From Eledone cirrhosa (lineage: Eukaryota), in contig OZ024754.1 of the NCBI GenBank assembly GCA_964016885.1, positions 22,754,001 to 22,818,000 on the forward strand: 64,000 nt of DNA. The letters are read 5' to 3'. Every line of letters begins with the position of its first letter. Position 1 is the first letter of the stretch. Shown piece after piece: positions 1,471 to 55,611 of the stretch. The position numbers and the translations under genes were made by a program. The notes beneath the pieces were generated by a model. It saw nothing but the letters and a program-made list of their open reading frames with translations. It did not search any database and was not told the origin of the DNA.

Positions 1471-4400
1471 CTAGTCGATTACATATCGTAGAACTTTTGT
1501 CTCAATAAATACAACATCATCGGGTTCTGTAACATCCCTATGGTTGCCAGCAGGATCTCTGGTAATATCACAACTGTTATCAAGTAAAGACATCTTTTTT
1601 AAGGTTTGAGGTGAGAGCAAAGGCTGAGAATTTGAAGATGTGGAAAAGGGGCTAGGGGGCATAGTTTCTTGGCTTTCATTTATATTTTTATCCTCCCAAT
1701 CAGGATCACATTCACTGTTTTGAGAGTCACTGAGGACTATAGTGGATCCTGATAAAGCTGTGGCATTTGAATTCATTGTGTGATTTCTATCAAGAGAATT
1801 ATGATTATTATTGAAAATACAGTCAACATCTTTCTCCTCATCAGATTCACAACATTGTTGTTGAGTGATGCAATGTTCATCTTTATTGCTAACATATTTC
1901 CTTTTAGTATTAATTACACCAGTACAGTTTTCTAAAACAACTGTATGGGGTGGAAGAGGAAGAGCTAACTCAGTGTTGTTCAGCAATAGACTATCACATG
2001 ATTTCTTTTGGTGCTTCTTGTTATTATATTCAGAAGAAGTTGCTATTTCATGTCTTCGCTTTCCCAGTAATTGTTGAGAAGAATTATCATCTGATTGAGG
2101 CTGAAAAATCGTTTTAGTTGGTTGATTTTTGTCTTCAGAGATGCGACATTTAATCATAACTTTATTAGTAGTTGCATTCGTTTGTGAAATGGAGCATCCT
2201 GCTTCACAGTTCAAGCTTTCATTTATTGAATCATCATCGTTATTATTATTACTATTAATATTATAATTCACATATTTTTCATTTCCTGAGGTTTTATACC
2301 TTTCTTTTTCCAGATGTTGTGATAGAACACCAAACCTCAAATCTTCCTCATTTCCTTTGTCCATTGGTGACTTAAATATATCCTGGTTACTGGTGTCAGG
2401 TTTTGGTGACATACTAAATATATCCTGGTTACTAGTTACAGGTTTTGGTGATATATTACTAGATATATCCAGGTTACTAGTTTCAGGTTTTGGTGACATA
2501 TTACTTGATATACCCTTATTACTAGTTACAGGTTTTGGTGACATATTACTAGATATATCCAGGTTACTAGTTTCAGGTTTTGGTGACATATTACTTGATA
2601 TACCCTTATTACTAGTTACAGGTTTTGGTGACATATTACTAGATATATCCAGGTTACTAGTTTCAGGTTTTGGTGACATATTACTTGATATACCCTTATT
2701 ACTAGTTACAGGTTTTGGTGATATATTACTAGATATATCCAGGTTACTAGTTTCAGGTTTTGGTGACATATTACTTGATATATCCAGGTTACTAGTTTCA
2801 GGTTTTGGTGACATATTACTTGATATATCCAGGTTACTAGTTACAGGTTTTGGTGATATATTACTAGATATATCCAGGATACTAGTTTCAGGTTTTGGTG
2901 ACATATTACTTGATATACCCTTATTACTAGTTACAGGTTTTGGTGACATATTACTAGATATATCCAGGTTACTAGTTTCAGGTTTTGGTGACATATTACT
3001 TGACATATCCAGGTTACTAGTTTCAGGTTTTGGTGACATATTACTTGATATATCCAGGTTACTAGTTTCAGATTTTGGTGACATATTACTTGACATATCC
3101 AGGTTAGTAGTTTCAGGTTTTGGTGACATATTACTTGATATATCCAGGTTACTAGTTTCAGGTTTTGGTGACATATTACTTGACATATCCAGGTTACTAG
3201 TTTCAGGTTTTGGTGACATATTACTTGACATATCCAGGTTACTAGTTTCAGGTTTTGGTGACATATTACTTGACATATCCAGGTTACTAGTTTCAGGTTT
3301 TGGTGACATATTACTTGATATATCCAGGTTAATAGTTTCAGGTTTTGGTGACATATTACTTGATATACCCTTATTACTAGTTACAGGTTTTGGTGACATA
3401 TTACTTGACATATCCAGGTTACTAGTTTCAGGTTTTGGTGACATATTACTTGATATATCCAGGTTAATAGTTTCAGGTTTTGGTGACATATTACTTGATA
3501 TACCCTTATTACTAGTTACAGGTTTGGGTGACATATTACTTGACATATCCAGGTTACTAGTTTCAGGTTTTGGTGACATATTACTTGATATATCCAGGTT
3601 ACTAGTTTCAGGTTTTGGTGACATATTACTTGACATATCCAGGTTACTAGTTTCAGGTTTTGGTGACATATTACTTGATATATCCAGGTTACTAGTTTCA
3701 GGTTTTGGTGACATATTACTTGATACATCCAGGTTACTAGTTTCAGGTTTTGGTGACATATTACTAGATATATCCAGGTTACTAGTTTCAGGTTTTGGTG
3801 ACATATTACTTGATACATCCAGGTTACTAGTTTCAGGTTTTGGTGACATATTACTTGACATATCCAGGTTACTAGTTTCAGGTTTTGGTGACATATTACT
3901 TGATACATCCAGGTTACTAGTTTCAGGTTTTGGTGACATATTACTTGACATATCCAGGTTACTAGTTTCAGGTTTTGGTGACATATTACTTGATACATCC
4001 AGGTTACTAGTTTCAGGTTTTGGTGACATATTACTTGATATGCCCTTATTACTAGTTACAAGTTTTGGTGATATATTACTTAAAGCAAATTCATTATTCA
4101 ATTTATGGTTTGAAAACATATTAATTGGTATGTTCTCGTTATCATTTCTTTCTTTTGCTATTGTAGTGGGTAACATGAACTCACAAGAACTAAAATGTTG
4201 TGACATATTTTCTAGTGAGAGACTTTGGCTCTTACAATGATGTAGTGCCACACATGGCAAGTTTTCTTTCTGAGAGTTACACTGTTTTGATGGTATGTCT
4301 TTAGACGAAATCTCTTCTATTTTATAACTTTGTAATGTCACTCTTTCACACAATTTTTCAATGTCATTACAGCTTTGTGATGTCATATCTTCAGACTTAT

Positions 4401-4988
4401 TTCTGTAAATGCAACTTTGTGATGTTATATCTTCAGACCTGTCTCTGTGGTTATTACAGATTTGAGATGTCATATCTTTAGAACTGTGTCTTTGGTTATT
4501 ACAATTTTGAGATGTCATATCTCCAGACCTGACTCTTTCATTATTACAACTTTGTGATGTCACATCATCAGACTTGTCTCTGTGGTTATTACAACTTTGT
4601 GATGTCATATCTCCAGACCTGTCTCTTTTGTTATTACAACTTTGTGATGTCATATCTCTAGACCTGTCTCTTTTGTTATAACAACTTTGTGATGTCATAT
4701 CTTCAGACTTGTTTCTGTGTTTATTACAACTTTGTGATATCATACCTTTAGACTTTTCTCTATAGATATTACAATGCTGTGATGTCACACCTTCAGATAT
4801 GTTTCTTGACATGTCAAAACATTGTGACATCACATTGTCAGACTCAATTTCCTGAACATTACAACTTGATGAGAACAGCTCTTCATTACTGCAGGTAATC
4901 TCAGAAATTGATAGTTGTGATTGTTGACTAAAGGAATTCTTTGAACTGTCAGAGTCAGCAAAGGAAAGACTTTCTCGGGGTGGATAAG
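1471..4988 (-). CDS. DCLRE1C: Artemis last coding exon: very long, repeat-expanded C-terminal tail
   Basis: ttttttggcag acceptor in phase 1 matches the exon 10 donor. 3518-bp open frame to TAG at 1471. Ser-rich low-complexity tail with two 45-bp tandem arrays. The summed CDS of 4689 nt is divisible by 3. Confidence 0.82.
2380..4080 (-). repeat. Coding minisatellite, 45-bp unit, ~38 copies, encoding SSNMSPKPETSNLD[I/M/V]
   Basis: Directly visible near-perfect tandem array (ggttttggtgacatattacttgatatatccaggttactagtttca on +), in frame in the last exon. Confidence 0.98.
4365..4835 (-). repeat. Coding minisatellite, 45-bp unit, ~11 diverged copies, encoding DMTSQSCNNxRDRSx
   Basis: ttattacaactttgtgatgtcatatct recurs at ~45-bp spacing. 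The translation shows an SQ dipeptide in register in each unit. Confidence 0.93.
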
Positions 4989-7302: not shown

Positions 7303-7420
7303 AGATTTCTGGAATATTCTTAATTTTCATCTTTCCTAGTAGCCTGACATCAGATAAACTTGGCTGCTTTTTAATCTCTTGTTTTGGAACATTTAGAAAT
7401 TTATCAAGCTCTAGTTGAAT
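7303..7420 (-). CDS. DCLRE1C: Artemis coding exon 10
   Basis: IQLELDKFLNVPKQEIKKQPSLSDVRLLGKMKIKNIPEI (LLGKMK cf. human PLGKLKR), AG acceptor and GTAACT donor. Its 0-to-1 phase links exon 9 to the last exon. The exact acceptor is less certain. Confidence 0.8.
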
Positions 7421-7654: not shown

Positions 7655-9742
7655 CATCATCATCATCATCATCATCAACGTTTAACGTCCGTGTTCCACG
7701 CTTGCATGGGTTTGGACGGGGGTAGTCCCACTTGAGGCAAGAGTGATTGTCTTGCTCGCATAGGACCGTCTGGCAGGTTTTCTACAGTTGGATGCCCTTC
7801 CTAACACCAACCACATTTACAGTGTGGGTCTGGGAGGCTTTTACCGTGTTGCCTACACGGCCACATTACAGCGTGGACTGTGTGTTTTTTTGTCGTGACA
7901 CCTACACGATCTCATTTGTTTCGGCCTCGATGGCGCGGCACCAACATAACTTTACATAGAACGGGGTGGTGTGGATGGGGTAGGGGTGGTGGTGGTGGGA
8001 CGGGGGTGTATTTTGTTAGAGATGCCTACTGGCTGGAGTAGGTTTTACTATATATTTAGGTAAGGCGGGTCTTCTCTGTTACTGAGTACCGCCAAAGGTC
8101 TCGGTCCAGTGACATTGTCTTGGAGAGGTGTAAGTGTGTGATGTCGGAGTTTATCAGCTCGTCCCAGGTTTTTCTAGGTCTGCCTATTCCGTGACTACCG
8201 TCTATCTTTATTGCCCTGCACTTTGTTATACAGCTATCGACTTTCATGTGCATCACGTGTCCATACCAACGTAGCCTTCTCTCGAGTAAACAACATCTGA
8301 TCCCTCTTATCTCTAATTTTTTCCTTAGTTCGTTTATGCTTTGCCGTTCACGTATATTACTGTTACACATCCAGCGGAGCATGCAAGCTTCGTTCCTCTC
8401 TAGTCTGCGTATATCCTCTGCACACAATGCCCAGGTCTCACTGCCATGCAGCATTGCTGTTCGTATGCAGGCATCGTACAACCTGCCTTTCATTTTTAGG
8501 GAGAACCCTTTAGCAGCTAATAGTGGTATAAGCTCTCTGAACTTTTTCCAACCAGTTCTGACTCTAGCTACAGTACTTTCAGAGCACCCTCCCCCACTGC
8601 TGATTTTATCACCCAGGTAACGGAAGCTGTCCACTATTTCTATAGAACCCTCTGCGCAATTGAAAGAGCTAGTATTTTGTGGGCACTTGCTGCTACTTAT
8701 TGCACCAGAACACCGGCCACATGTAAAATCTATGTTCTTAGTTAGCTTACCTGTGATCCCACTACATCTTTTATGCACCCATACTTTGCATTTAGGACAT
8801 AAAATGGAGTTTCTACCTACGCCTTTCCTACACACCGAGCACGACCATTTCCCAGAAGGGACCGCCGCCTTGTTTTCTTTCCTACAAACTAGTAGTTTGG
8901 TCTTAGCCAGGTTAATTTTAAGTCCTTTTGACTCTAGGCCGTGCTTCCATGTTTGGAATTTCTTCTCTAGCTCGGCCATTGATTCCGCTATGAGTGTCAG
9001 GTCGTCTGCGTATAGGAGTTCCCATGGGCAGCCTGTCTTGAACTCCTCTGTTATAGCCTGAAGGGCAATAATAAATAGTAGGGGGCTGAAAACAGAGCCC
9101 TGATGGACGCCAACTTTTACGCTAAACTCTTCACTATATTCCTTGTTAATTCTAACCTTGCTGACTGTTTCTTTATACATAGCTTGTATAGCCCTCACAA
9201 GCCATTCGTCAACGCCTAGTTTTCTAAGAGCCCACCAGATAATGGAGCGGGGGACTCTGTCGAAGGCTTTCTCCAAGTCGACAAAAGCTAAGTAGAGGGG
9301 TTTACCTTTAGCTAGGTACTTCTCCTGTAGTTGTCGTACTATGAAAAGAGCGTCTGTGGTACTTTTGCCTGACACAAACCCGAACTGCATTTCATCTAGG
9401 TCAATTCTCTCTCTGATTAGTTGCGCTATTACTTTTTCCGTGACCTTCATGACCTGGTCGATTAATTTAATGCCTCTATAGTTACTCCTATCTAGGGCGT
9501 CTCCTTTACCCTTATAACAGTTAACGATGATGCTGCTATGCCAGTCCTTCGGAACAACCCCATTCTGTACGACTTGGTTAACTATGCGGGTGACCATGGT
9601 GTGTCCCACCGTGCCAGATGCCTTCAGCATCTCAGCAACTATTTCCGAAGGCCCAGCCGCCTTACCCGTCTTCATATCCTTGATTGCCTTACTTATTATA
9701 CTCCCCTCGACTAACACTGCTGGTCCCTCTATTGGGTCGATA
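7655..9742 (-). mobile_element. 5'-truncated RTE-clade LINE (RT plus 3' UTR, (GAT)n tail)
   Basis: Uninterrupted 567-aa ORF with RT motifs (KAAGP, QFGF, FVDLEKAFD, GVHQG, YADD, FRYLG) and the RTE C-terminus (RRLRWYGH, GRPRKTW). (CAT)n tail on +. Confidence 0.95.
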
Positions 9743-10047
9743 TATCCCTTACAAAACATATCTACATAATATATTGTACATATCCCTTACAAAACATATC
9801 TACATAATATATTGTACATATCCCTTACAAAACATATCTACATAATATATTGTACATATCCCTTACAAAACATATCTATATAATATATTGTACATATCCC
9901 TTACAAAACATATCTACATAATATATTGTACATATCCCTTACAAAACATATCTACATAATATATTGTACATATCCCTTACAAAACATATCTATATAATAT
10001 ATTGTACATATCCCTTACAAAACATATCTACATAATATATTGTACAT
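9741..10047. repeat. 38-bp minisatellite, right part (~8 copies)
   Basis: Same unit as 7541-7654, resuming at the RTE 5' truncation point. Confidence 0.95.
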
Positions 10048-10089
10048 AATATAATTATCTCATACAAAACACATGTACATAATATAATG

Positions 10090-22500: not shown

Positions 22501-25500
22501 GTTGTTGGTGGTGGTGGTGGTGGTGTTGGTGGTGTTGGTGGTGGTGGTGGTGGTGTTGGTGTTGGTGATGGTGTTGGTGGTGGTGGTGGTGTTGGTGGTG
22601 GTGTTGGTGGTGTTGGTGGTTGTGGTGTTGGTGGTGGTGTTGGTAGTTGTGGTGGTGATGGTGGTGGTGGTGGTTGTGGTGTTGGTGGTGTTAGTGGTGG
22701 TGTAGGTGTAGGTGGTGGCGGTGTTGGTGGTGGTGTTGGTGTTGGTGGTGGTGTTGCTGGTGGTTGTGTTGGTGTTGGTGGTGGTGGTGGTGTTGATGGT
22801 GGCTTTGTTGGTGTTGTTGGTGTTGGTGGTGGTGTTGGTGGTGGTGGTGTTGATGGTGGTGTTGGTGTTAGTGGTGGTGGTGGTGGTGGTGGTGGTGGTG
22901 TTGGTGGTGTTGGTGGTGGTGGTCGTGGTGGAGGTGTTAGTGGTGGTGTTGGTGGTGGTTGTTGTGGTGGTGGTGGTGTTGGTGGTGGTGTTGGTGATGG
23001 TGTGGTGTTTGTGGTGGTGGTGTTGGTGGTGGTGGTGGTGTTAGTGGTGGTGTTGGTGTTGGTGGTGGTGTTGTTGGTGGTGTTGCTGGTGTTGGTGGTG
23101 GTGTTGTTGGTGTTGGTGGTGGTTGTGGTGGTGGTGGTGTTGGTGGTGGTTGTGGTGGTTGTAGTGGTGTTGTTGTTGTTGGTGGTGGTGGTGGTGTTGG
23201 TGGTGGTGTTGGTGGTGGTGGTGTTAGTGGTGTTGGTTGTGGTGGTGGTGGTGTTGGTGGTGGTGGTGGTGGTGTTGGTGGTGGTTGTGGTGGTGGTGGT
23301 GGTGTTGGTGGTGGTGTTGGTGGTGTTAGTGGTGGTGTTGGTGGTGGTGTTGGTGGTGGTGGTCGTAGTGTTAGTGGTGTTGGTGGTGGTGGTGGTTGTG
23401 GTGGTGGTGTTGGACGTGGTGTTGGTGGTGTTGGTGGTGGTGTTGGTGGTGGTGTTGGTGGTGGTGGTGTTGGTGGAGGTGTTGGTGGTGTTAGTGGTGT
23501 TGGTTGTGGTGGTGGTTGTGTTGGTGGTGGTGTTGGTGGTGGTGGTGGTGGTGTTGGTGGTGGTTGTGTTGGTGGTGGTGTTGGTGGTGTTAGTGGTGGT
23601 GTTGGTGGTGGTGGTCGTAGTGTTAGTGGTGTTGGTGGTGGTGGTGGTTGTGGTGGTGGTGTTGGACGTGGTGTTGGTGGTGTTGATGGTGGTGGTGGTG
23701 GTGGTGTTGGTGGTGGTGTTGGTGGTGGTGGTGGTGGTGTTGGTGTTAGTGGTGTTGGTTGTGGTGGTGGTTGTGTTGGTGGTGTTGGTGGTGGTGGTGT
23801 TAGTGGTGTTGGTTGTGGTGGTGGTTGTGTTGGTGTTGGTGGTGGTGGTGGTGGTGTTGGTGGTGGTTGTGTTGGTGGTGGTGTTGGTGGTGGTGTTGGT
23901 GGTGTTAGTGGTGGTGTTGGTGGTGGTGTTGGTGGTGGTGGTCGTAGTGTTAGTAGTGTTGGTGGTGGTGGTGGTTGTGGTGGTGGTGTTGGACGTGGTG
24001 TTGGTGGTGGTGTTGGTGGTGGTGTTGGTGGTGGTGGTGGTGGTGGTGGTTGTGGTGGTTGTGTTGGTGGTGTTAGTGGTGGTGGTGGTGATTGTGGTGG
24101 CGTTGGTAGTGGTGTTGGTGGTGGTGGTGGTGGTAGTGGTGGTGGTGTTGGTGGTGGTGGTGCTGCTGGTGGTGGTGGTGGTGGTGGTGGTGGTGGTGTT
24201 GGTGGTGGTGGTGTTGGTGTTGGTGATGGTGGTGTTGGTGGTGGTGTTGGTGGTGGTGTTAGTGGTGGTGGTGGTGATTGTGGTGGCGTTGGTGGTGGTG
24301 GTCGTGGTGGAGGTGTTAGTGATGGTGTTGGTGGTGGTGGTTGTGGTGGTGTTGGTGGTGGTGGTGTTGGTGGTGGTGGTGGTGGTGTTGGTGACGGTGG
24401 TGGTGTTGGTGTTGGTGGTGGTGTTGGTGGTGTTAGTGGTGTTGTTGGTAGTGGTGGTGGTGTTGGTGGTGGTGGTGGTGTTGATGGTGGCTTTGTTGGT
24501 GTTGTTGGTGTTGGTGGTGGTGTTGGTGGTGGTGGTGTTGATGGTGGTGTTGGTGTTAGTGGTGGTGGTGGTGGTGGTGGTGTTGGTGGTGTTGGTGGTG
24601 GTGGTCGTGGTGGAGGTGTTAGTGGTGGTGTTGGTGGTGGTTGTTGTGGTGGTGGTGGTGTTGGTGGTGGTGTTGGTGATGGTGTGGTGTTTGTGGTGGT
24701 GGTGTTGGTGGTGGTGGTGGTGTTAGTGGTGGTGTTGGTGTTGGTGGTGGTGTTGTTGGTGGTGTTGCTGGTGTTGGTGGTGGTGTTGTTGGTGTTGGTG
24801 GTGGTTGTGGTGGTGGTGGTGTTGGTGGTGGTTGTGGTGGTTGTAGTGGTGTTGTTGTTGTTGGTGGTGGTGGTGGTGTTGGTGGTGGTGTTGGTGGTGG
24901 TGGTGTTAGTGGTGTTGGTTGTGGTGGTGGTGGTGTTGGTTGTGGTGGTGGTGGTGTTGGTGGTGGTGGTGGTGGTGTTGGTGGTGGTTGTGGTGGTGGT
25001 GGTGGTGTTGGTGGTGGTGTTGGTGGTGTTAGTGGTGGTGTTGGTGGTGGTGTTGGTGGTGGTGGTCGTAGTGTTAGTGGTGTTGGTGGTGGTGGTGTTG
25101 GACGTGGTGTTGGTGGTGTTGGTGGTGGTGTTGGTGGTGGTGTTGGTGGTGGTGGTGTTGGTGGAGGTGTTGGTGGTGGTGGTGGTGGTGTTGGTGGTGG
25201 TGTTGGTGGTGTTCGTGGTTGTGTTGGTGGTGGTGTTGGTGGTGGAGGTGGTGGTGTTGGTGGTGGTTGTGTTGGTGGTGGTGTTGGTGGTGGTGTTGGT
25301 GGTGTTAGTGGTGGTGTTGGTGGTGGTGTTGGTGGTGGTGGTCGTAGTGTTAGTGGTGTTGGTGGTGGTGGTGGTGGTTGTGGTGGTGGTGTTGGACGTG
25401 GTGTTGGTGGTGGTGTTGGTGGTGTTGGTGGTGGTGTTGGTGGTGGTGTTGGTGGTGGTGGTGGTGGTGGTGTTGGTGGTGGTGTTGGTGGTGGTGTTGG

Positions 25501-28500
25501 TGGTGGTGGTGTTGGCGTTGGTGGTGGTGGTGTTAGTGGTGTTGGTTGTGGTGGTGGTGGTGTTGGTGTTGGTGGTGGTGTTGGTGGTGGTGGTCGTAGT
25601 GTTAGTGGTGTTGGACGTGGTGTTGGTAGTGGTGTTGGACGTGGTGTTGGTGGTGGTGTTGGTGGTGGTGTTGGTGGTGGTGGTGTTGGTGGTGGTGTTG
25701 GTGGTGGTGGTGGTGTTAGTGGTGTTGGTTGTGGTGGTGGTTGTGTTGGTGGTGGTGTTGGTGGTGGTGGTGTTGGTGGTGGTTGTGGTGGTGGTGGTGT
25801 TGGTGTTGGTGGTTTTAGTGGTGGTGTTGGTGGTGGTGGTGTTGGTGGTGGTGTTGGTGGTGGTGGTGTTAGTGGTGTTGGTTGTGGTGGTGGTTGTGTT
25901 GGTGGTGGTGGTGGTGGTGTTGGTGGTGGTTGTGGTGCTGGTGGTGTTGGTGGTGGTGTTGGTGGTGTTAGTGGTGGTGTTGGTGGTGGTGTTGGTGGTG
26001 GTGGTGTTGGTGGTGGTGGTGTTAGTGGTGTTGGTTGTGGTTGTGGTTGTGTTGGTGGTGGTGTTGGTGGTGGTGGTGGTGGTGTTGGTGGTGGTTGTGG
26101 TGGTGGTGGTGTTGGTGGTGGTGTTGGTGGTGTTAGTGGTGGTGGTTGTGGTGGTGGTTGTGTTGGTGGTGGTGTTGGTGGTGGTGGTGGTGTTGGTGGT
26201 GGTTGTGGTGGTGGTGGTGGTGGTGGTGGTGGTGTTGGTGGTGGTATTGGTGGTGGTGTTGGTGGTGGTGGTGTTGGTGGTGTTGGTTGTGGTGGTGGTT
26301 GTGTTGGTGGTGGTGTTGGTGGTGGTGGTGTTGGTGGTGGTTGTGGTGGTGGTGGTGTTGGTGGTGGTGTTGGTGGTGTTGTTGGTGGTGGTGTTGGTGG
26401 TGGTTGTGTTGGTGGTGGTGTTGGTGGTGGTGTTGGTGGTGTTAGTGGTGGTGTTGGTGGTGGTGTTGGTGGTGGTGGTCGTAGTGTTAGTAGTGTTGGT
26501 GGTGGTGGTGGTTGTGGTGGTGGTGTTGGACGTGGTGTTGGTGGTGGTGTTGGTGGTGGTGTTGGTGGTGGTGGTGGTGGTGGTGGTTGTGGTGGTTGTG
26601 GTGGTTCTGTTGGTGGTGTTAGTGGTGGTGGTGGTGATTGTGGTGGCGTTGGTAGTGGTGTTGATGGTGGTGGTGGTGGTAGTGGTGGTGGTGTTGGTGG
26701 TGGTGGTGCTGCTGGTGGTGGTGGTGGTGGTGGTGGTGGTGGTGTTGGTGGTGGTGGTGTTGGTGTTGGTGATGGTGGTGTTGGTGGTGGTGTTGGTGGT
26801 GGTGTTAGTGGTGGTGGTGGTGATTGTGGTGGCGTTGGTGGTGGTGGTCGTGGTGGAGGTGTTAGTGATGGTGTTGGTGGTGGTGGTTGTGGTGGTGTTG
26901 GTGGTGGTGGTGTTGGTGGTGGTGGTGGTGGTGTTGGTGACGGTGGTGGTGTTGGTGTTGGTGGTGGTGTTGGTGGTGTTAGTGGTGTTGTTGGTGCTGG
27001 TGGTGGTGTTGGTTGTGGTGGTGGTTGTGTTGGTGGTGGTGTTGGTGGTGGTGGTGTTGGTGGTGGTTGTGGTGGTGGTGGTGGTGTTGGTGGTCGTGGT
27101 GGTGGTGTTGGTGGTGGTTGTGGTGGTGGTGGTGTCGATGGTCGTGGTGGTGGTGGTGGTGGTGGTGGTGGTGATGGTGGTGGTGGTGGTTGTGGTGGTG
27201 GTGGTGGTGGTGGTTGTGGTGCTGGTTGTGGTGGTGGTGTTGGAGGTGGTGGTGGTGTTGGAGGGGGTGGTGGTGATGGTGGTGGTGGTGGTGGTGGTGG
27301 TCGTGGTGGTGATGGTGTTGGTGTTAGTGGTGGTGGTGGTGGTCGTGGTGGTGATGGTGTTGGTGTTGGTGGTGGTGGTGGTGGTGGTCGTGGTGGTGAT
27401 GGTGTTGGTGTTGGTGGTGGTGGTGGTGGTGATGGTGGTGGTGGTGTTGGTGGTGGTGGTGGTGGTGATGGTGGTGGTGGTGGTGGTGGTCGTGGTTTTG
27501 GTGGTGGTGGTGTTGGTGGTGGTGATGGTGTTGGTGGTGTTAGTGGTGGTGTTGGTGGTGGTGGTTGTGGTGGTGGTGTTGGTGGTGGTGTTGGTGTTGG
27601 TGTTGGTGGTGTTGGTGGTGGTGGTGGTGGTGGTGGCAGTAGTGGTGTTGTTGTTGGTGGTGGTGGTGGTGGTGTTGGTGGTGGTTGTGGTGTTGGTGGT
27701 GGTTGTGGTGGTGTTGGTGATGGTGGTGTTGGTGGTGGTGGTGTTAGTGGTGGTGATTGTGGTGGTGGTGATTGTGGTGGCGTTGGTAGTGGTGTTGGTG
27801 GTGGTGGTGGTGGTGTTGGTGGTGGCGGTGGTGGTAGTGGTGGTGGTGGTGGTGTTGGTGGTGGTGGTGGTGGTGTTGGTGACGGTGGTGGTATTGGTGG
27901 TGGTGGTGTTGGTGTTGGTGGTGTTGTTGGTGGTGTTGGTTGTGGTGGTGGTTGTGTTGGTGGTGGTGGTGCTGGTGTTGGTGGTGGTTGTGGTGGTGGT
28001 GGTGTTGGTGGTGGTGGTGGTGTTAGTGGTGGTGGTGGTGGCGTTGTTGGTGTTGTTGGTGTTTGTGGTGGTGGTGGTGTTGGTGGTGGTTGTGTTGGTG
28101 GTGGTGTTGGTGGTGGTGATGTTGGTGGTGGTGGTGGTGGTGGTGTTAGTGGTGGTGGTGGTGGTGGTGGTCGTGGTGGAGGTGTTAGTGATGGTGTTGG
28201 TGGTGGTGGTTGTGGTGGTTGTGGTGGTGTTGGTGGTGGTGGTGTTGGTGGTGGTGGTGTTGGTGGTGGTGTTGGTGGTGGTGGTGTTGGTGGTGGTAGT
28301 AGTGGTGTTGTTGTTGGTGGTAGTAGTGGTGTTGTTGTTGGTGGTGGTGTTGGTGGTGTTGGTGGTGGTGGTGTTGGTGGTGGTGGTGTTGGTGTTGGTG
28401 ATGGTGTTGGTGGTGGTGGTGGTGTTGGTGGTGGTGTTGGTGGTGGTGGTGGTGGTGTTGGTGGTGGTGGTGTTGGTGGTGGTGTTGGTGGTGGTGGTGG

Positions 28501-31500
28501 TGGTTGTGGTGTTAGTGGTGGTGTAGGTGTAGGTGGTGGCGGTGTTGGTGTTGGTGGTGGTGTTGCTGGTGGTTGTGTTGGTGTTGGTGGTGGTGGTGGT
28601 GTTGATGGTGGCGGTGTTGGTGTTGTTGGTGTTGGTGGTGTTGGTGGTGGTGTTGGTGGTGGTGGTGTTGGTGGTGGTGTTGGTGTTAGTGGTGGTGGTG
28701 GTGGTGGTGGTGGTGGTGTTGGTGGTGGTGGTGTTGGTGGTGGTGGTCGTGGTGGAGGTGTTAGTGGTGGTGTTGGTGGTGGTTGTTGTGGTGGTGGTGG
28801 TGTTGGTGGTGGTGTTGGTGATGGTGTGGTGTTTGTGGTGGTGGTGTTGGTGGTGGTGGTGGTGTTAGTGGTGGTGTTGGTGTTGGTGGTGGTGTTGTTG
28901 GTGGTGTTGCTGGTGTTGGTGGTGGTGTTGTTGGTGTTGGTGGTGGTTGTGGTGGTGGTGGTGTTGGTGGTGGTTGTGGTGGTTGTAGTGGTGTTGTTGT
29001 TGTTGGTGGTGGTGGTGGTGGTGGTGGTGGTGGTGGTGGTGATGGTGGTGTTGGTGGTTGTGGTGGTGGTGGTGGTGGTGGTAGTGGTGGTGGTGGTTGT
29101 GGCGGTGGTGGTGTTGGTGGTGGTGGTGGTGATGGTGGTGGTGGTGTTGGTGCTGGTGGTGGTGGTGGTGTTGGTGCTGGTGGTGGTGGTGGTGTTAGTG
29201 GTGGTGTTGGTGGCGGTGTTGGTGGTGGTGGTCGTAGTGTTAGTGGTGTTGGTGGTGGTGGTGGTGGTTGTGGTGGTGGTGTTGGACATGGTGTTGGTGG
29301 TGGTGTTGGTGGTGTTGGTGTTGGTGGTGGTGGTGGTGTTGGTGGTGGTGTTGGTGGTGGTGGTGTTGGTGGTGGTCGTGGTGGTGGTTGTGGTGGTGGT
29401 GGTGGTGGTGGTGGTCGTGGTGGTGGTGGTGGTGATGGTGGTGGTGGTGGTTGTGGTGGTGGTGTTGGTGTTGGTGGTCGTGGTGGTGGTGGTCGTGGTG
29501 GTGGTGGTTGTGGTGGTGTTGGTGGTGGTGGTGATGGTGGTGGTGTTGGTGGTATTGGTGGTCGTGGTTGTGGTGGTGGTGGTGTTGGTGGTGGTGGTGG
29601 TGGTGGTGATGGTGGTGGTGTTGGTGGTGTTGGTGGTCGTTGTTGTGGTGGTGGTGGTGTTGGTGGTGGTGGTGGTGGTGTTGGTGGTGTTAGTGGTGGT
29701 GGTGGTGGTGGTCGTAGTGTTAGTGGTGTTGGTGGTGGTGGTGGTTGTGGTGGTGGTGTTGGACGTGGTGTTGGTGGTGGTGGTGTTGGTGTTGGTGTTG
29801 GTGGTGGTGGTGGTGTTGGTGGTGGTGTTGGTGGTGGTGTTGGTGGTGTTGGTGGTGGTCGTGGTGGTGGTGGTGGTTGTGGTGGTGGTGGTGATCGTGG
29901 TGGTGGTGGTGATGGTGGTGGTGGTGGTGGTTGTGGTGGTGTTGGTGGTGGTGGTGGTGGTGGTGTTGGTAGTGTTAGTGGTGTTGGTGGTGGTGGTGGT
30001 TGTGGTGGTGGTGTTGGACGTGGTGTTGGTGGTGGTGTTGGTGGTGGTGTTGGTGGTGGTGGTGGTGGTGGTGTTGGTGGTGGTGGTTTTGGTGGTGGTG
30101 TTGGTGTTGGTGGTGTTGGTGGTGGTGGTGGTGGTGGTGGTGGTGGTGTTGGTGGTGGTGGTAGTGGTGTTGTTGGTGGTGGTGGTGGTGGTGGTGTTGG
30201 TGGTGGTTGTGGTGGTTGTGGTGTTGGTGGTGGTTGTGGTGGTGGTGTTAGTGGTGGTGGTGGTGATTGTGGTGGTGGTGGTGATTGTGGTGGCGTTGGT
30301 AGTGGTGTTGGTGATGGTGGTGGTGGTAGTGGTGGTGGTGTTGGTGGTGGTGTTGATGGTGGTGCTGGTGGTGTTGGTGGTGGTGGTGGTGGTGGTGTTG
30401 GTGGTGTTGGTGGTGGTGGTGGTGTTGGTGGTGGTGTTGGTGATGGTGGTGTTGGTGGTGGTGTTGGTGGTGGTGTTGGTGGTGGTGGTGGTAGTGGTGG
30501 TGGTGGTGATTGTGGTGGTGGTGATTGTGGTGGCGTTGGTAGTGGTGTTGGTGGTGGTGGTGGTGGTAGTGGTGGTGGTGGTGGTGTTGGTGACGGTGGT
30601 GGTGTTGGTGGTGGTGGTGTTGGTGGTGGTGTTGGTGGTGGTGGTGTTAGTGGTGTTGTTAGTGGTGTTGTTGGTGGTGGTGGTGGTGTTGGTTGTGGTG
30701 GTGGTTGTGTTGGTGGTGGTGTTGGTGGTGGTGGTGGTGGTGGTTGTGGTGGTGGTGGTGTTGGTGGTGGAGGTCGTGGTGGTGTTGGTGGTGGTTGTGG
30801 CGGTGTTGGTGGTCGTGGTGGTGGTGGTCGTGGTGGTGGTGGTGATGGTGGTGGTGGTGGTTGTGGTGGTGGTGGTGGTTGTGGTGGTGGTGGTGGTGTT
30901 GGTGGTGTTAGTGGTGGTGTTGGTGGTGGTGGTCGTAGTGTTAGTGGTGTTGGTGGTGGTGGTGGTTGTGGTGGTTGTGTTGGTGTTGGTGGAGGTGGTG
31001 GTGGTGTTGGTGGTGGTGTTGGTGTTGGTGGTGTTGGTGGTGGTGGTGGTGGTGTTGGTGGTGGTGGTAGTGGTGTTGTTGGTGGTGGTGGTGGTGGTGG
31101 TGGTGTTGGTGGTGTTGGTGTTGGTGGTGGTGGTGGTGGTGGTGTTGGTGGTGGTGTTGGTGGTGGTGGTGTTGGTGGTGGTTGTGGTGGTGGTTGTGGT
31201 GGTGGTGGTGGTGGTGGTGGTCGTGGTGGTGGTGATGGTGGTGGTGGTGGTTGTGGTGGTGGTCGTGGTGGTGGTGGTCGTGGTGGTGGTGGTGGTGGTT
31301 GTGGTGGTGTTGGTGGTGGTGGTGATGGTGGTGGTGTTGGTGGTGTTGGTGGTCGTGGTTGTGGTGGTGGTGGTGTTGGTGGTGGTGGTGGTGGTGGTGG
31401 TGATGGTGGTGGTGTTGGTGGTGTTGGTGGTCGTTGTTGTGGTGGTGGTGGTGTTGGTGGTGGTGGTGGTGGTGGTGGTGGTGGTGTTGGTGGTGTTAGT

Positions 31501-34500
31501 GGTGGTGTTGGTGGTGGTGGTGGTGGTGGTCGTAGTGTTAGTGGTGTTGGTGGTGGTGGTGGTTGTGGTGGTGGTGTTGGACGTGGTGTTGGTGGTGGTG
31601 GTGTTGGTGTTGGTGTTGGTGGTGGTGGTGGTGGTGGTGTTGGTGGTGGTGTTGGTGGTGGTGGTGTTGGTGGTGGTCGTGGTGGTGGTGGTGGTTGTGG
31701 TGGTGGTGGTGATCGTGGTGGTGGTGGTGATGGTGGTGGTGGTGGTGGTTGTGGTGGTGTTGGTGGTGGTGTTGGTGGTGGTGTTGGTAGTGTTAGTGGT
31801 GTTGGTGGTGGTGGTGGTTGTGGTGGTGGTGTTGGACGTGGTGTTGGTGGTGGTGTTGGTGGTGGTGTTGGTGGTGGTGTTGGTGGTGGTGGTGGTGTTG
31901 GTGGTGGTGGTTTTGGTGGTGGTGTTGGTGTTGGTGGTGTTGGTGGTGGTGGTGGTGGTGGTGTTGGTGGTGGTGGTAGTGGTGTTGTTGGTGGTGGTGG
32001 TGGTGGTGGTGTTGGTGGTGGTTGTGGTGGTTGTGGTGTTGGTGGTGGTTGTGGTGGTGGTGTTAGTGGTGGTGGTGGTGATTGTGGTGGTGGTGGTGAT
32101 TGTAGTGGCGTTGGTAGTGGTGTTGGTGATGGTGGTGGTGGTAGTGGTGGTGGTGGTGGTGTTGGTGGTGGTGTTGATGGTGGTGCTGGTGGTGTTGGTG
32201 GTGGTGGTGGTGGTGGTGTTGGTGTTGTTGGTGGTGGTGGTGGTGTTGGTGGTGGTGTTGGTGATGGTGGTATTGGTGGTGGTGTTGGTGGTGGTGGTGG
32301 TAGTGGTGGTGGTGGTGATTGTGGTGGTGGTGATTGTGGTGGCGTTGGTAGTGGTGTTGGTGGTGGTGGTGGTGGTAGTGGTGGTGGTGGTGGTGTTGGT
32401 GACGGTGGTGGTGTTGGTGGTGGTGGTGTTGGTGGTGGTGTTGGTGGTGGTGGTGTTAGTGGTGTTGTTAGTGGTGTTGTTGGTGGTGGTGGTGGTGTTG
32501 GTTGTGGTGGTGGTTGTGTTGGTGGTGGTGTTGGTGGTGGTGGTGGTGGTGGTTGTGGTGGTGGTGGTGGTGGTGGTGGTGGTGGTGTTGGTGGTGGTTG
32601 TGGTGGTGTTGGTGGTCGTGGTGGTGGTGGTCGTGGTGGTGGTGGTGATGGTGGTGGTGGTGATGGTGGTGGTGGTGGTTGTGGTGGTTGTGGTGGTGGT
32701 GGTGGTGTTGGTGGTGTTAGTGGTGGTGTTGGTGGTGGTGGTCGTAGTGTTAGTGGTGTTGGTGGTGGTGGTGGTTGTGGTGGTGGTGTTGGTGTTGGTG
32801 GAGGTGGTGGTGGTGTTGGTGGTGGTGTTGGTGTTGGTGGTGTTGGTGGTGGTGGTGTTGGTGGTGGTGGTAGTGGTGTTGTTGGTGGTGGTGGTGGTGG
32901 TGGTGGTGGTGGTTCTGGTGTTGGTGGTGGTTGTGGTGGTGTTGGTGATGGTGGTGTTGGTGGTGGTGTTGTGGTGGTGGTGGTGTTAGTGGTGGTGATT
33001 GTGGTGGTGGTGATAGTGGTGGCGTTGGTAGTGGTGTTGGTGGTGGTGGTGGTGGTGTTGGTGGTGGTGGTGGTGGTAGTGGTGGTGGTGTTGGTGGTGG
33101 TGGTGTTGGTGACGGTGGTGGTATTGGTGGTGGTGGTGTTGGTGGTGGTGTTGGTGGTGGTGGTGTTAGTGGTGTTGTTGGTGGTGGTGGTGGTGTTGGT
33201 TGTGGTGGTGGTTGTGTTGGTGGTGGTGGTGGTGGTGGTGTTGGTGGTGGTTGTGGTGGTGGTGGTGTTGGTGGTGGTGGTGGTGTTAGTGGTGGTGGTG
33301 GTGGCGTTGTTGGTGTTGTTGGTGTTTGTGGTGGTGGTGGTGTTGGTGGTGGTTGTGGTGGTGGTGGTGTTGGTGGTGGTGTTGGTGGTGGTGGTGGTGG
33401 TGGTGGTGGTGTTAGTGGTGGTGGTGGTGGTGGTGGTCGTTAGTGGTGGTGTTGGTGGTGGTGGTGTTGGTGGTGGTGTTGGTGGTGGTGTTGATGGTGG
33501 TGTTGATGGTGGCGGTGTTGGTGTTGTTAGTGTTGGTGGTGGTGGTGGTGGTGGTGGTGTTGGTGGTGGTTGTGGTTGTGTTGGTGGTGGAGTTGGTGGT
33601 GTTGGTGGTGTTAGTGGTGGTGTTGGTGGTGGTGGTGGTGGTGTTGGTGGTGGTGATGTTCGTGGTGGTGTTCGTGGTGGTGTTGGTGGTGGTGGTCGTG
33701 GTTGTGGTGGTGTTGGTGGTGTTGGTGGTGGTGTTGGTGTTGGTGGTGTTGGTGGTGTTAGTGGTGGTGTTGGTGGTGGTGGTGTTGGTGGTGTTGGTGG
33801 TGGTGGTGGTGGTGTTGGTGTTGGTGGTGGTGGTGGTGGTGTTGGTGGTGGTGGTGGTGGTGGTGGTGTTGCTGGTGGTGTTAGTGGTGGTTGTGTTGGT
33901 GGTGTTGGTGGTGGTGGTCGTGGTGGAGGTGTTAGTGGTGGTGTTGGTGGTGGTGGTTGTGGTGGTGTTGGTGGTGTTGGTGTTGGTGGTGGTGTTGGTG
34001 TTAGTGGTGGTGGTGGTGGTGGTGTTGGTGGTGTTGGTGGTGGTGGTCGTGGTGGAGGTGTTAGTGGTGGTGGTGGTTGTGGTGGTTGTGGTGGTGGTGG
34101 TGTTGGTGATGGTGTTGGTGATGGTGGTTGTGGTGGTGTTGGTGGTGTTGGTGTTGGTGGTGGTGTTGGTGTTAGTGGTGGTGGTGGTGGTGGTGTTGGT
34201 GGTGTTGGTGGTGGTGGTCATGGTGGAGGTGTTAGTGGTGGTGGTGGTTGTGGTGTTGGTGGTGGTGGTGGTGTTAGTGGTGGTGTTGGTGGTGGTGTTG
34301 GTGGTGGTGTTGTTGGTGGTGTTGCTGGTGTTGGTGGTGGTGTTGTTGGTGTTGGTGGTGGTTGTGGTGGTGGTGGTGTTGGTGGTGGTTGTGGTGGTTG
34401 TAGCGGCGTTGTTGTTGTTGGTGGTGGTGGTGGTGTTGGTGGTGGTGGTGTTGGTGGTGGTGGTGTTGGTGGTGGTTGGTGTTGGTGTTGGTGTTGGTGG

Positions 34501-34782
34501 TGGTGGTGGTGTTGGTGTTGGTGGTGGTGGCGGTGGTGTTGGTGGTGGTGGTGGTGGTTATAGTGGTGTTGTTGTTGTTGGTGGTGGTGGTGGTGTTGGT
34601 GGTGTTGGTGGTGGTGGTGTTGGTGGTGGTGTTGGTGGTGGTCGTGGTGGTGGTGGTGTTGGTGGTGGTGTTAGTGGTGGTGGTGGTGGTGTTGGTGGTG
34701 TTAGTGGTGGTGTAGGTGCTGGCGGTGTTGGTGGTGGTGTTGGTGGTGGTGTTGGTGGTGGTGTTGGTGGTGGTTGTAGTGG

Positions 34783-34813
<31 letters not shown>

Positions 34814-35793
34814 GGTGTTGGTGGTGGTGGTGTCGGTGGTGTTGGTGGTGGTGGTTGTGGTGGTGTTGGTGTTGGTGTTGTTGGTGTTGGTGATGGTGGT
34901 GGTGTTGTTGGTGTTAGTGGTGGTGGTGGTGGTGGTTGTGGTGGTGGTGGTGTTGGTGGTGGTTGTGGTGGTGGTTGTGTTGGTGGTGGTTGTGGTGGTT
35001 GTAGTGGTGTTGTTGGTGGTGGTGGTTGTAGTGGTGGTAGTTGTGGGGTGGTGGTTGTGGTAGTGGTGTTGTTGGTGGTGGTGGTTGTAGTGGTTGTGGT
35101 GGTTGTGGTGTTGGTGGTGGTTGTGGTGGTGGTTGTGGTGGTGGTGGTGTTGGTGGTGGTTGTAGTGGTGTTGTTGTTGTTGGTGGTGGTGGTGGTGGTG
35201 TTGGTGGTGGTGGTGTTGGTGGTTGTGGTGTTGGTGGTGGTGTTGGTGTTTGTGGTGGTGTTGGTGGTGGTGGTGGTGTTGGTGGTGGTGGTGGTGTTGG
35301 TGGTGGTGGTGTTGGTGGTGGTGTTGGTGGCCGTGGTGGTGGTGGTGGTGGTGGTGTTGGTGGTGGTGTTGGTGTTGGTGGTGTTAGTGGTGGTGTAGGT
35401 GGTGGCGGTGTTGGTGTTGGTGGTGGTGTTGGTGGTGATGTTGGTGGTGTTGGTGGTGGTGGTGTTGGTGTTGGTGTTGGTGGTGGTTGTGTTGGTGTTG
35501 GTGGTGGTGTTGATGGTGGCGGTGTTGGTGTTGTTGGTGTTGGTGGTGGTGTTGTTGGTGGTGTTGGTGGTGGTTGTGGTGGTGGTCGTTGTAATGGTGT
35601 TATTGGTGGTGGTGGTGGAATTGGTGTTGGTGGTGGTTGTAGTGGTGGTGTTGTTGTTGTTGGTGGTGGTGGTGTTGGTGGTGTTGGTGGTGGTGGTTGT
35701 AGTGGTGGTGGTAGTGGTGGTGGTGGTGGTGGTGGTGTTAGTGGTGTTGGTGGTGGTTGTAATGGTGTTGGTGGTGGTTGTAGTGGTGTGGGT
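16527..35793. repeat. ~19.3 kb (GGT)n-derived low-complexity satellite filling intron 5
   Basis: Nearly continuous GGT/GTT/GAT variants between exons 5 and 6. Rare marker words recur at kb offsets. Confidence 0.98.
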
Positions 35794-35911: not shown

Positions 35912-35967
35912 ATAACAGAACCAATGCAGTGTCCAGCATGTAGCAACGTTACTGTTATAGTGGTACT
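35912..35967 (-). CDS. DCLRE1C: Artemis coding exon 5
   Basis: tttcttgtag acceptor, STTITVTLLHAGHCIGSV(M) = MBL motif 3 (human VTLLPAGHCPGSVM), GTAAGT donor. 56 bp. Confidence 0.96.
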
Positions 35968-37656: not shown

Positions 37657-37719
37657 TTGAGAAGAATGTTCATTTTGGGGAACTTCAATCAGGGTTGGGC
37701 TGTTGACTTCCAGTACTTT
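37657..37719 (-). CDS. DCLRE1C: Artemis coding exon 4
   Basis: catag acceptor, KVLEVNSPTLIEVPQNEHSSQ (cf. human ISIEIETPTQISL), GTAAGA donor. 63 bp, phase 0-0. Confidence 0.88.
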
Positions 37720-38487: not shown

Positions 38488-38572
38488 CACATAAGGTTCC
38501 AATCTTTTAAAGATGTCCATTTTAAGGAGAATAGTTTTTACTATTTTGGAACAGTATACATAGGTAAATGGC
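38488..38572 (-). CDS. DCLRE1C: Artemis coding exon 3
   Basis: tgcag acceptor, PFTYVYCSKIVKTILLKMDIFKRLEPYV (cf. human VYLYCSPVTKELLL), GTAAGA donor. 85 bp, phase consistent. Confidence 0.93.
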
Positions 38573-39771: not shown

Positions 39772-39823
39772 CTTTTTTCAAGAACTTCAAAAAACTCTTG
39801 CTGCTCAAGTCCATGAGTGTGAT
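39772..39823 (-). CDS. DCLRE1C: Artemis coding exon 2
   Basis: ttttcag acceptor, (D)HTHGLEQQEFFEVLEK(R), GT donor. 52 bp. Completes the HxHxDH metal-binding motif in phase with exon 1. Confidence 0.92.
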
Positions 39824-47100: not shown

Positions 47101-48020
47101 ATGACCATTTTGGTCGCCAGCAATAATTATGTAGTCACTGTCGGTTATTTGGGAGGTAGTGAGCATCAATGTCTCATAGAATCTGTCTTTTATAGTGCTA
47201 GGCAGTCCGGATTGGGGTGCATATGCAGATATTACTGTCACAGTAGTTCTATTTAGGACAAGTCTTATTTTAATTATTCTGTCGTTCACTCTATTTACTA
47301 TCTACCCATTTTTCTGCTAACATGATTCCTACCCCACCCAGCCCATTGTCATTTCCCCCTCAGAAAAGCTTATAGCATCGTTTTTTACCCACAATGAATA
47401 TAGCAGATCCACCCCTCCAACTGGTCTCTTGGATACAGCAAACATCAACCTCCTTACGTTCAAGCATTTCTACAACCTCTTAAGGTGCCTACATTCATGG
47501 TACCAACTCTGAGGTTTTGGATTGCGTTTGGTGGGTGGGAACGGTGGGGTGCGGGGAGGGGTGTGCAGGATGGGGTTGTGGTTATGTTGGCCATCCGCGG
47601 CCGAAACAAAGAGGGGGAGTCCTTGCCTTTTCGTCCGGCAGCATGAGGTGAATTTGTCTTTATCTTTGGCATTGTCACTGAGTGTCCAGATTTTTCAGAC
47701 TCTCCAGAATTCCTTAGTCCATCCATCATATCGAAAAGCAACCAGAAGTGATAGCATAGGCCACTGACTTATGATTGGTCCTAATAATAATGGTGGAGAG
47801 TGGGGGCGAGCAGGAGGGGTATGGGGTAGTTAGCAAGAGGGTTTAAATAAAATCTTCGAATTTTGGGCATAATTGGACAAGCATATAAAAGTAATAATAA
47901 GCGAATAATGGGATTTTAAAATACAAGAAGATTATTTAGAACAACCAGACAGAATTATAGAATAGCATTGAGAGAGAGCAAAAGATTGGATTCTGGGCGA
48001 TGATACGGATATATGAATGA
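44151..48020 (-). mobile_element. Near full-length RTE LINE, frameshifted
   Basis: Successive ORF pieces: GTMNVGTL (EN start), ISAYAPQ, QIDYIL, SQHRL, then RT with YADD and the C-terminus, 3' UTR and (GAT)n tail. Confidence 0.95.
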
Positions 48021-55502: not shown

Positions 55503-55611
55503 CATAGTGTGTGTGAGATAGAAAGAACATGGTAGATGATAGGTTTTCTCCATCAAATCGGTCAAGAGATATAAAAGAATATTCTAACATACGACCCTGA
55601 AATGTACTCAT
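55503..55611 (-). CDS. DCLRE1C: Artemis (DNA cross-link repair 1C) coding exon 1
   Basis: ATG at 55611 translates [36 protein letters not shown]-(D), matching the Artemis N-terminus (human [33 protein letters not shown]). 109 bp, followed by a GTAAGT donor. Confidence 0.96.

What the first reader, a model, noticed from the sequence alone, without database searches (positions are those of the whole stretch)
2380..4080. Artemis tail carries ~38 near-identical 15-aa S-P-K-P repeats (~570 aa)
Seen: a 45-bp array sits in frame, with no stops, inside the last exon, making the predicted protein 1562 aa. Variant units (PVTSNKG vs PETSNLD; V/M/I) alternate in higher-order patterns, the signature of recent unequal crossing-over. 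Established: the Artemis C-terminal tail is a disordered, phospho-regulated, autoinhibitory region. Inference: the expansion creates ~38 Ser-Pro sites for proline-directed kinases (CDK/MAPK) and a length-variable spacer or multivalent phospho-module on an NHEJ nuclease. I know of no such array in Artemis.
Basis: partly seen in the sequence, partly recalled or inferred. Interest (0 to 1): 0.78.

Follow-up and report, generated by a model that had tools for sequence, protein, structure and literature searches.

The report
Recent repeat expansion in octopod Artemis
The DNA-repair nuclease Artemis of this octopod carries 38 tandem copies of a 15-amino-acid unit in its tail, a likely recent and likely transcribed expansion that most likely acts as a tolerated floppy spacer, since other molluscs carry unrelated repeats in the same tail.

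Summary
A 45-bp x 38 array (2376-4081) lies in frame in exon 11 of an intact 1562-aa octopod Artemis gene, giving 38 S-P-K motifs. It is probably not an assembly artefact: word depth in a probable DNA run fits the assembled multiplicity of the unit variants tested. A second run that behaves like spliced RNA holds the units at full-inclusion depth. The array grew from a seed in place: three Octopus species have 3 SPK motifs there, and a close relative about 5-6 units. The phospho-module reading is weakly supported. None of the 38 sites fits the full CDK or MAPK consensus, and unit variation looks neutral, 2 synonymous to 8 non-synonymous. Arrays in Artemis are not unique: 6 of 29 mollusc species have tail arrays of four or more copies of unrelated units, against 0 of 73 vertebrate proteins. 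Most likely a tolerated coding minisatellite in a disordered linker; a selected, MDC1-like phospho-switch is possible but unshown.

The parts
2376..4081 (-). Array 1: 45 bp x 38, consensus unit N-M-S-P-K-P-E-T-S-N-L-D-I-S-S, aa 693-1262; 38 S-P-K motifs; 26% Ser, 13% Pro, 13% Asn, no Arg; net charge -15
4366..4797 (-). Array 2: older 45 bp x ~10 array, unit D-M-T-S-Q-S-C-N-N-x-R-D-R-S-x; 11 in-register S-Q motifs at aa 445-600 (ATM/ATR/DNA-PK type sites)
1471..4988 (-). Exon 11 coding part (3518 nt, to the TAG stop); holds both arrays
1642..1731 (-). Conserved C-terminal block S-D-S-Q-N-S-E ... S-Q-E-T-x-P-P-S-P-F-S (starts aa 1477), shared with Octopus and Argonauta
2220..2263 (-). Junction where about 190 aa of the Octopus tail (O. 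bimaculoides 623-813, alignable to Argonauta) are missing, beside a short triplet repeat
7303..7420 (-). Exon 10; holds L-G-K-M-K (aa 379-383), matching the L-G-K-L-K DNA-PKcs contact of vertebrate Artemis
13718..13969 (-). Exon 9, beta-CASP/DRMBL end with motif B His and motif C Val
14258..14377 (-). Exon 8
15768..15981 (-). Exon 7, motif A Asp (V-D-T-T-F)
16380..16481 (-). Exon 6, motif 4 Asp (T-G-D-F-R)
35912..35967 (-). Exon 5, motif 3 His (A-G-H-C-I-G-S)
37657..37719 (-). Exon 4
38488..38572 (-). Exon 3
39772..39823 (-). Exon 2, end of H-x-H-x-D-H
55503..55611 (-). Exon 1 from the ATG, motif 1 Asp and start of H-x-H-x-D-H

Best explanation
This is a coding minisatellite of 38 in-frame units in the tail of an intact octopod Artemis, likely expanded recently from a short ancestral SPK segment by unequal exchange, likely transcribed, and most likely working as a tolerated disordered spacer rather than a selected signalling module. 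Shown: the gene, the array, the seed motifs in Octopus, the dimer periodicity. Inferred: the nuclease and the DNA-PKcs contact (aa 1-~400) lie before the arrays and the conserved C-terminal block (aa 1477 on) after them, so added units lengthen a floppy linker without breaking either end. The 45-bp unit keeps the frame, so gains and losses are nearly free. Some Ser-Pro sites would probably be phosphorylated in mitosis as minimal CDK sites, but the number 38 is predicted not to matter.
For: Seed: at the same place O. bimaculoides, O. sinensis and O. vulgaris each have 4 SP (3 SPK) and Argonauta 2 SP (1 SPK), against 39 SP here; flanks align on both sides. Recency: run X5 of a relative 7.6% diverged in the 3' flank shows about 5-6 units, while only 4 private substitutions lie in 35 internal units, 1575 bp. 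Neutral look: 2 synonymous, 8 non-synonymous distinct variants outside one linked block; p 0.67-0.79 for a synonymous excess. Tolerance: 10 of 49 non-vertebrate proteins (10 of 29 named mollusc species, 6 with four or more copies) carry tail repeats with unrelated units, 8 of the 10 without any SP/TP; 0 of 73 vertebrate proteins; non-vertebrate lengths 649-1763 aa. About 190 aa of tail shared by Octopus and Argonauta are lost here. AlphaFold gives 20 units no fold (pLDDT 34, single sequence, weak). In human Artemis, mutating 9 S/T-Q sites did not affect repair (PMC8887466).
Against: S-P-K is unchanged in 38 of 38 units, its one variant being synonymous, and is kept in Octopus, Argonauta and the relative in X5, so the seed motif looks constrained. 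The neutrality test has only 10 variants and little power. Nucella independently amplified S-P-x-K. A near-doubling of the spacer (1098 aa against 594-775) may not be free. No genome-wide baseline for coding arrays in octopods was measured; one paralog frame of 783 aa had none.
Confidence: 0.6

Rival explanations
1. A selected multivalent phospho-switch: CDK1 or a related proline-directed kinase would phosphorylate the 38 Ser-Pro sites, possibly priming GSK3 on the serine four residues upstream, and so move Artemis off chromatin or off its partners in mitosis, as for the MDC1 PST repeats.
For: S-P-K invariant in 38 of 38 units; 36 sites have S/T at -4 and 29 have S/T/D/E at +4. The seed is conserved in octopods. 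Nucella has 12 full S-P-x-K sites in its own array. S-Q-S-P occurs in 66 of the 122 database proteins. Precedent: CDK1 phosphorylation of 21 TP motifs and repeat number tune MDC1 chromatin binding (PMC11761366, passages and section 15).
Against: 0 of 38 sites have the +3 basic residue of the CDK consensus (consensus from bioRxiv 10.1101/2022.05.24.493195, passages) and 0 of 38 are P-x-S-P. No non-synonymous change in the S-P-K codons has p about 0.2 with 8 variants; it falls to about 0.03 only with a rough count of 18 that includes old end units, and the three codons were picked after the fact. The array is acidic and has no Arg, a poor fit for nucleosome binding (inference). A relative has about 5-6 units. 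8 of 10 other arrays have no SP/TP.
Confidence: 0.2
2. A selected entropic linker: length, not sequence, would matter. The array moves the conserved C-terminal block away from the nuclease, lowering its local concentration (weaker autoinhibition) or extending its reach to partners.
For: Distance from L-G-x-M-K to S-D-S-Q-N-S-E is 1098 aa here, 594 and 596 in two Octopus species, 775 in Argonauta. Human autoinhibition uses N456-S457-E458 (PMC9303282, PMC8887466), and the octopod terminal block holds an N-S-E. Unrelated units in other molluscs fit selection on length alone.
Against: Three shared residues do not show homology, and the human motif lies about 85 aa after the DNA-PKcs contact, which would put its counterpart before the arrays. 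Autoinhibition has not been shown in any mollusc in the papers seen. Tail length varies without visible order among molluscs.
Confidence: 0.12
3. The array is not in the mature protein at this size: it would be spliced out of the exon, cut off by early polyadenylation, or inflated by the assembler.
For: Most units hold a donor-like site scoring 6.0, inside the range of 9 of the 10 real donors (4.3-9.4), and an AATAAA lies at 4725. Run X1 has no library record, so its RNA nature is inferred. No laid piece spans the array. The 90-nt depth test depends on choosing 1 of 4 candidate strings; the other three would give 6.2-10.7 per copy.
Against: In X2 the unambiguous 54-nt record gives 14.0-14.2 per assembled copy and the 90-nt record 14.6, against flanks of 14.9 and 13.3. 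In X1 four array records give 5.9-8.1 per copy, at or above the upstream flank (5.68), and one contig runs without joint from the last units past the stop. No acceptor-like site above -2.2 lies inside the array past its first bases or in the 150 nt after it. The post-array coding part is conserved with Octopus and Argonauta.
Confidence: 0.06

Closest known systems
Artemis/DCLRE1C (SNM1C) with its disordered C-terminal region
   Same: Same MBL/beta-CASP nuclease with all catalytic motifs, same L-G-x-L/M-K DNA-PKcs contact, long low-complexity tail rich in S/T-Q.
   Different: Tail of about 1180 aa against about 310-330 in human; two tandem arrays; none found in 73 vertebrate proteins.
Tail repeats of other mollusc Artemis proteins (Nucella 10 aa x 24, Littorina 8 x 16, Babylonia 11 x 9.5, Haliotis rufescens 10 x 9, Pecten 13 x 8, Candidula 18 x 4)
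   Same: Lineage-specific tandem units in the same disordered tail. Nucella's also carries Ser-Pro-x-Lys.
   Different: Units unrelated in sequence; this array is the longest seen (about 570 aa against at most 242). Those are database gene models, not checked here against reads.
MDC1 PST repeats
   Same: Pro/Ser/Thr-rich tandem array with proline-directed sites in a DNA double-strand-break protein.
   Different: MDC1 has 41-aa units with T-P sites shown to be CDK1 targets and to bind nucleosomes (PMC11761366). Here 15-aa units, S-P, acidic, no Arg, young, and no function shown. No homology claimed or tested.
PST-rich degenerate repeats of bdelloid rotifer Ligase K
   Same: Invertebrate repair protein whose disordered region expands and contracts through Pro/Ser/Thr repeats (PMC6264785, passages).
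   Different: There the repeats flank and multiply PBZ domains; here no folded module is carried.
Coding VNTRs / minisatellites in general
   Same: Frame-preserving unit, variant units in short higher-order blocks.
   Different: Strong recent unit gain is rare in human protein repeats (PMC3995336, abstract only); polymorphism among individuals is untested here.

Membership tests
Artemis/DCLRE1C | MBL motifs 1-4 and beta-CASP motifs A-C intact | tested here: met
   D17, H33-x-H35-x-D37-H38, H116, D137, D166, H320, V342 in the model
Artemis/DCLRE1C | Closest to Artemis rather than SNM1A or Apollo | tested here: met
   7 of 7 PDB matches of exon 9 are Artemis; aa 1-390 are 70-71% identical to Octopus Artemis; two other DRMBL loci lie elsewhere in the genome
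Artemis/DCLRE1C | DNA-PKcs contact after the nuclease, and a DNA-PKcs gene in the genome | tested here: met
   L-G-K-M-K at aa 379-383 (human L372, L375 in PMC8887466); PF08163 exons on G000:C12. Binding itself not tested.
Artemis/DCLRE1C | Tail autoinhibits the nuclease | not testable with these tools
   Needs biochemistry; the counterpart of human N456-E458 could not be assigned
Coding minisatellite (VNTR) | Tandem 10-100 bp unit inside a coding exon, frame kept | tested here: met
Coding minisatellite (VNTR) | Present in the transcript | tested here: inconclusive
   Probable: run X1 fits spliced RNA with the array included, but its library is not on record and no junction was seen directly
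Coding minisatellite (VNTR) | Copy number differs between species | tested here: met
   38 here, about 5-6 in the relative of run X5, 3 SPK in Octopus
Coding minisatellite (VNTR) | Copy number differs among individuals | not testable with these tools
   The one run of another sample set that was laid (X6, RAD-seq) has no depth on the array side
MDC1-type CDK-regulated multivalent repeat | Full CDK consensus S/T-P-x-K/R in the units | tested here: not met
   0 of 38; all are minimal S-P sites
MDC1-type CDK-regulated multivalent repeat | Units under purifying selection and kept over long times | tested here: inconclusive
   2 synonymous to 8 non-synonymous variants, low power; the S-P-K core is invariant
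MDC1-type CDK-regulated multivalent repeat | Phosphorylation in mitosis and copy-number-dependent binding | not testable with these tools
   Needs phosphoproteomics and cell assays

The most novel reading that the evidence does not exclude
Mollusc Artemis tails are a repeat hot spot on which proline-directed phospho-arrays have arisen twice (S-P-K-P in this octopod, S-P-S-K in Nucella). Here a conserved SPK seed was amplified about six-fold since the split from a close relative, next to an 11-site S-Q array, giving one end-joining nuclease a damage-kinase block followed by a cell-cycle-kinase block: an MDC1-like tunable switch caught as it evolves.
Probability: 0.15. Interest if true: 0.7.

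Novelty: new variant of a known kind. Interest (0 to 1): 0.38.

Why it matters
If tolerated, it shows that about 570 aa can be added to the Artemis tail, and about 190 aa lost, with the nuclease intact. It also shows that the tail's fixed length in vertebrates (599-759 aa proteins, no arrays) is not general, and it marks the two short conserved blocks as the likely working parts. The octopod series of 1, 3, about 5-6 and 38 SPK units is a natural length series for asking what the tail does, a question the cited structural papers call open. If the phospho-switch reading were true it would be a rare case of a young multisite module on a core repair enzyme.

Tried and rejected
Dispersed satellite or mobile insertion: rejected; one place in the own genome and seed motifs in orthologs. 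Antisense 657-aa frame (2267-4240, +) as a gene: rejected; it is the mirror of the repeat, and its Pfam hits had 0-1 passing stretches on repeated hydrophobic units. Common origin of arrays 1 and 2: not shown; best rotation 21 of 45 identical, shuffle p 0.30 and 0.36. Folded solenoid: no support, pLDDT under 50 at 300 of 300 residues, but from a single sequence. ESM Atlas: best score 0.86, lead level only, nothing usable. No RNA holder is listed on record; this is no evidence either way. The exon 10-11 junction was not seen directly in reads and stays inferred from homology and contig length. More cephalopod orthologs: a search with the C-terminal 109 aa gave only Argonauta, 1 of 204 candidates; no squid or cuttlefish protein was obtained, and no search of the 50% representative library was obtained. 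Earlier scan findings: none. Literature: four searches (listings and abstract starts) showed no paper on repeats in Artemis tails or on octopod Artemis; subscription journals are mostly absent. Two primary papers on autoinhibition and tail deletions (PMC5336168, PMC9691611) were not held, so they are known only through citing papers. No supplements were read; the cross-species alignment in Supplementary Figure S2B of PMC8887466 may bear on tail conservation.

Full report
1. The observation. Tandem Repeats Finder reports a 45-bp array at 2376-4081 with 38.0 copies, 91% matches and no indels, inside a long minus-strand frame ending at 1471. Using Octopus Artemis proteins found by search as guides, I placed 11 exons from 55611 to 1471. 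All 10 introns are GT-AG, the coding sequence is 4689 nt, and the protein is 1562 aa with no internal stop. S-P-K occurs 38 times between aa 697 and 1251. Units 2-36 are 93.5% identical on average, and units two apart are more alike than chance (p 0.0012), which fits duplication of 90-bp dimers.

2. The gene. Exon 9 matches only Artemis among solved structures (7 of 7) and Pfam DRMBL. All catalytic motifs are present. Residues 1-390 are 70-71% identical to Octopus Artemis, 61% to Argonauta and 37% to an ape, so the source is an octopod. L-G-K-M-K at aa 379-383 matches the vertebrate DNA-PKcs contact (PMC8887466 section 22), and the genome has a DNA-PKcs gene.

3. Is the array real? A flank plus the last three units was laid on 4 of the 8 listed runs. 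Run X2 (1381 million letters of contigs, flat flanks of 14.9 and 13.3) is probably DNA and may be the source of the assembly, so it tests the assembler, not a second animal. A de Bruijn graph of the assembled array predicts the start of the upstream unique contig at 4012, where the contigs of X1 and X2 both begin. Dividing contig depth by assembled multiplicity gives 14.0-14.2 for a 54-nt record (both candidate strings) and 14.6 for a 90-nt record (the 1 of 4 candidate strings that occurs three times; the others give 6.2-10.7). This supports the assembled counts of these variants; it is not a direct count of 38.

4. Is it transcribed? No run is on record as RNA. Run X1 behaves like poly(A) RNA, by inference: only 88 million letters of contigs yet depth 16.6 here; depth falls from 16.6 after the array to 5.68 before it, while X2 is flat; and its upstream contig is 1683 nt, close to the spliced length through exon 7 (1681, plus up to 3 shared bases), whereas the X2 contig stops after 1181 nt beside a high-copy intron element (2363 candidate places). 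In X1 four array records give 7.0, 6.4, 8.1 and about 5.9-6.4 per assembled copy (5.9-11.2 over all 31 strings tried for the last), never below the upstream flank. So most transcripts probably keep the whole array. A splice-site score built from the gene's own 10 introns finds a donor-like site in most units but no matching acceptor. The exon 10-11 junction was not seen directly.

5. Where it came from. The unit is found nowhere else in the own genome. Between conserved anchors, three Octopus species have 4 SP motifs (3 SPK) with similar neighbours (M-S-P-K-P-V/I-S-S-N-Q-G), and Argonauta has 2. Run X5, from another organism 7.6% diverged in the 3' flank, has the 45-bp unit: a 75-nt contig (one unit plus 30) at depth 52.8 against flanks of 14.6-18, one single-copy variant and two flank contigs, which together account exactly for the binned depth. 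That is about 5-6 units; units under 85% alike or filtered records would be missed. A loose end reads S-M-S-P-K-P by hand translation. With only 4 private substitutions in 1575 bp of internal units, most of the growth is likely younger than that split. The same tail has a second, older 15-aa array with 11 S-Q motifs and lacks about 190 aa that Octopus and Argonauta share.

6. Is it selected? Outside one linked block there are 10 distinct variants, 2 synonymous and 8 non-synonymous, as expected without selection (p 0.67-0.79), with low power. The S-P-K core is invariant (p about 0.2; about 0.03 on a rough, after-the-fact count). None of the 38 sites has the +3 basic residue of the CDK consensus or a -2 proline (MAPK motif, recalled). 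The array is 26% Ser, has no Arg and a net charge of -15. AlphaFold finds no fold in 20 units (weak).

7. Is it unique? I scanned 122 Artemis proteins: the best 120 of 579 hits plus two cluster members. Tail repeats occur in 10 of 49 non-vertebrate proteins, all molluscan (10 of 29 named species by my count from the names, 6 with four or more copies; 0 of 9 other invertebrate proteins), and in 0 of 73 vertebrate proteins. Units are unrelated; 8 of 10 have no SP/TP; Nucella has a 10-aa x 24 array with 12 S-P-x-K sites. These are unverified gene models and isoforms are not independent. The window's array is the longest of the set.

8. How it likely works. The catalytic domain and DNA-PKcs contact come first, then the S-Q array, then the SPK array, then a conserved terminal block at aa 1477. 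The human tail is disordered and autoinhibitory, and the role of its phosphorylation is called unknown (PMC9303282, passages); mutating 9 S/T-Q sites did not affect repair (PMC8887466); described sites are ATM/ATR targets such as Ser516 and Ser645 (PMC11584690, passages). I conclude that the array is most likely a tolerated spacer made by frame-preserving unequal exchange (0.6). A selected phospho-switch like the MDC1 PST repeats (PMC11761366) gets 0.2, a selected linker length 0.12, and absence from the protein or assembly inflation 0.06.

9. Novelty. Coding minisatellites in disordered tails are a known kind, also in repair proteins (MDC1; rotifer Ligase K, PMC6264785). Four searches showed no paper on repeats in Artemis tails. 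Octopus bimaculoides is among the DNA-PKcs sequences of PMC8021618 (passages). The finding is a new variant of a known kind: real, sizeable and young, but one of several mollusc cases and with no function shown. Interest 0.38.

Noticed in passing
window 4366-4797 (-): Second 45-bp array of about 10 copies encoding 11 in-register S-Q motifs (ATM/ATR/DNA-PK type) with a Cys in most units; Octopus and Argonauta have fewer, more degenerate units. It fits known Artemis phosphorylation chemistry better than the SPK array does.
   Followed up: partly
window 2220-2263 (-): About 190 aa of tail shared by Octopus and Argonauta, with a conserved hydrophobic motif (Q-L/I-V-N-L-x-x-I-F-x-P-L-x-x-Y-F-x-G-N), are missing just after the array.
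   Followed up: partly
window 16528-35788: Intron 5 is a 19.3-kb (TGG)n-type satellite, GC skew about 0.96 on the + strand, so C-rich on the transcribed sense strand.
   Followed up: no
window 2267-4240 (+): 657-aa open antisense frame across the array; a by-product of the repeat unit.
   Followed up: yes
window 8056-9786, 11074-13300, about 44500-47300 and 60500-61400 (-): Several similar reverse-transcriptase-like frames, probably LINE fragments, in the introns and upstream (family assigned by eye, not searched).
   Followed up: no
window 9742-10048 and 14411-14956: Intronic minisatellites, 38 bp x 8.1 and 68 bp x 8.0, 98-99% identical units: young tandem arrays are common around this gene.
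   Followed up: no
window 1743-1749, run X5: The relative has about 96 extra bases here, a probable in-frame insertion in the post-array tail.
   Followed up: no
proteins P0051 (Nucella), P0010 (Littorina): Both snails have several S-P-x-K motifs late in the Artemis tail, as a clear array in Nucella and as a loose series in Littorina.
   Followed up: partly
protein P0006 (Argonauta) aa 1080-1183: The conserved S-D-S-Q-N-S-E block is duplicated; a similar block is duplicated in Ostrea P0024.
   Followed up: no
L002 (G000:C2:357236737-357239925): A 783-aa open frame of another DRMBL nuclease, Apollo-like by eye, with no tandem array above threshold.
   Followed up: partly
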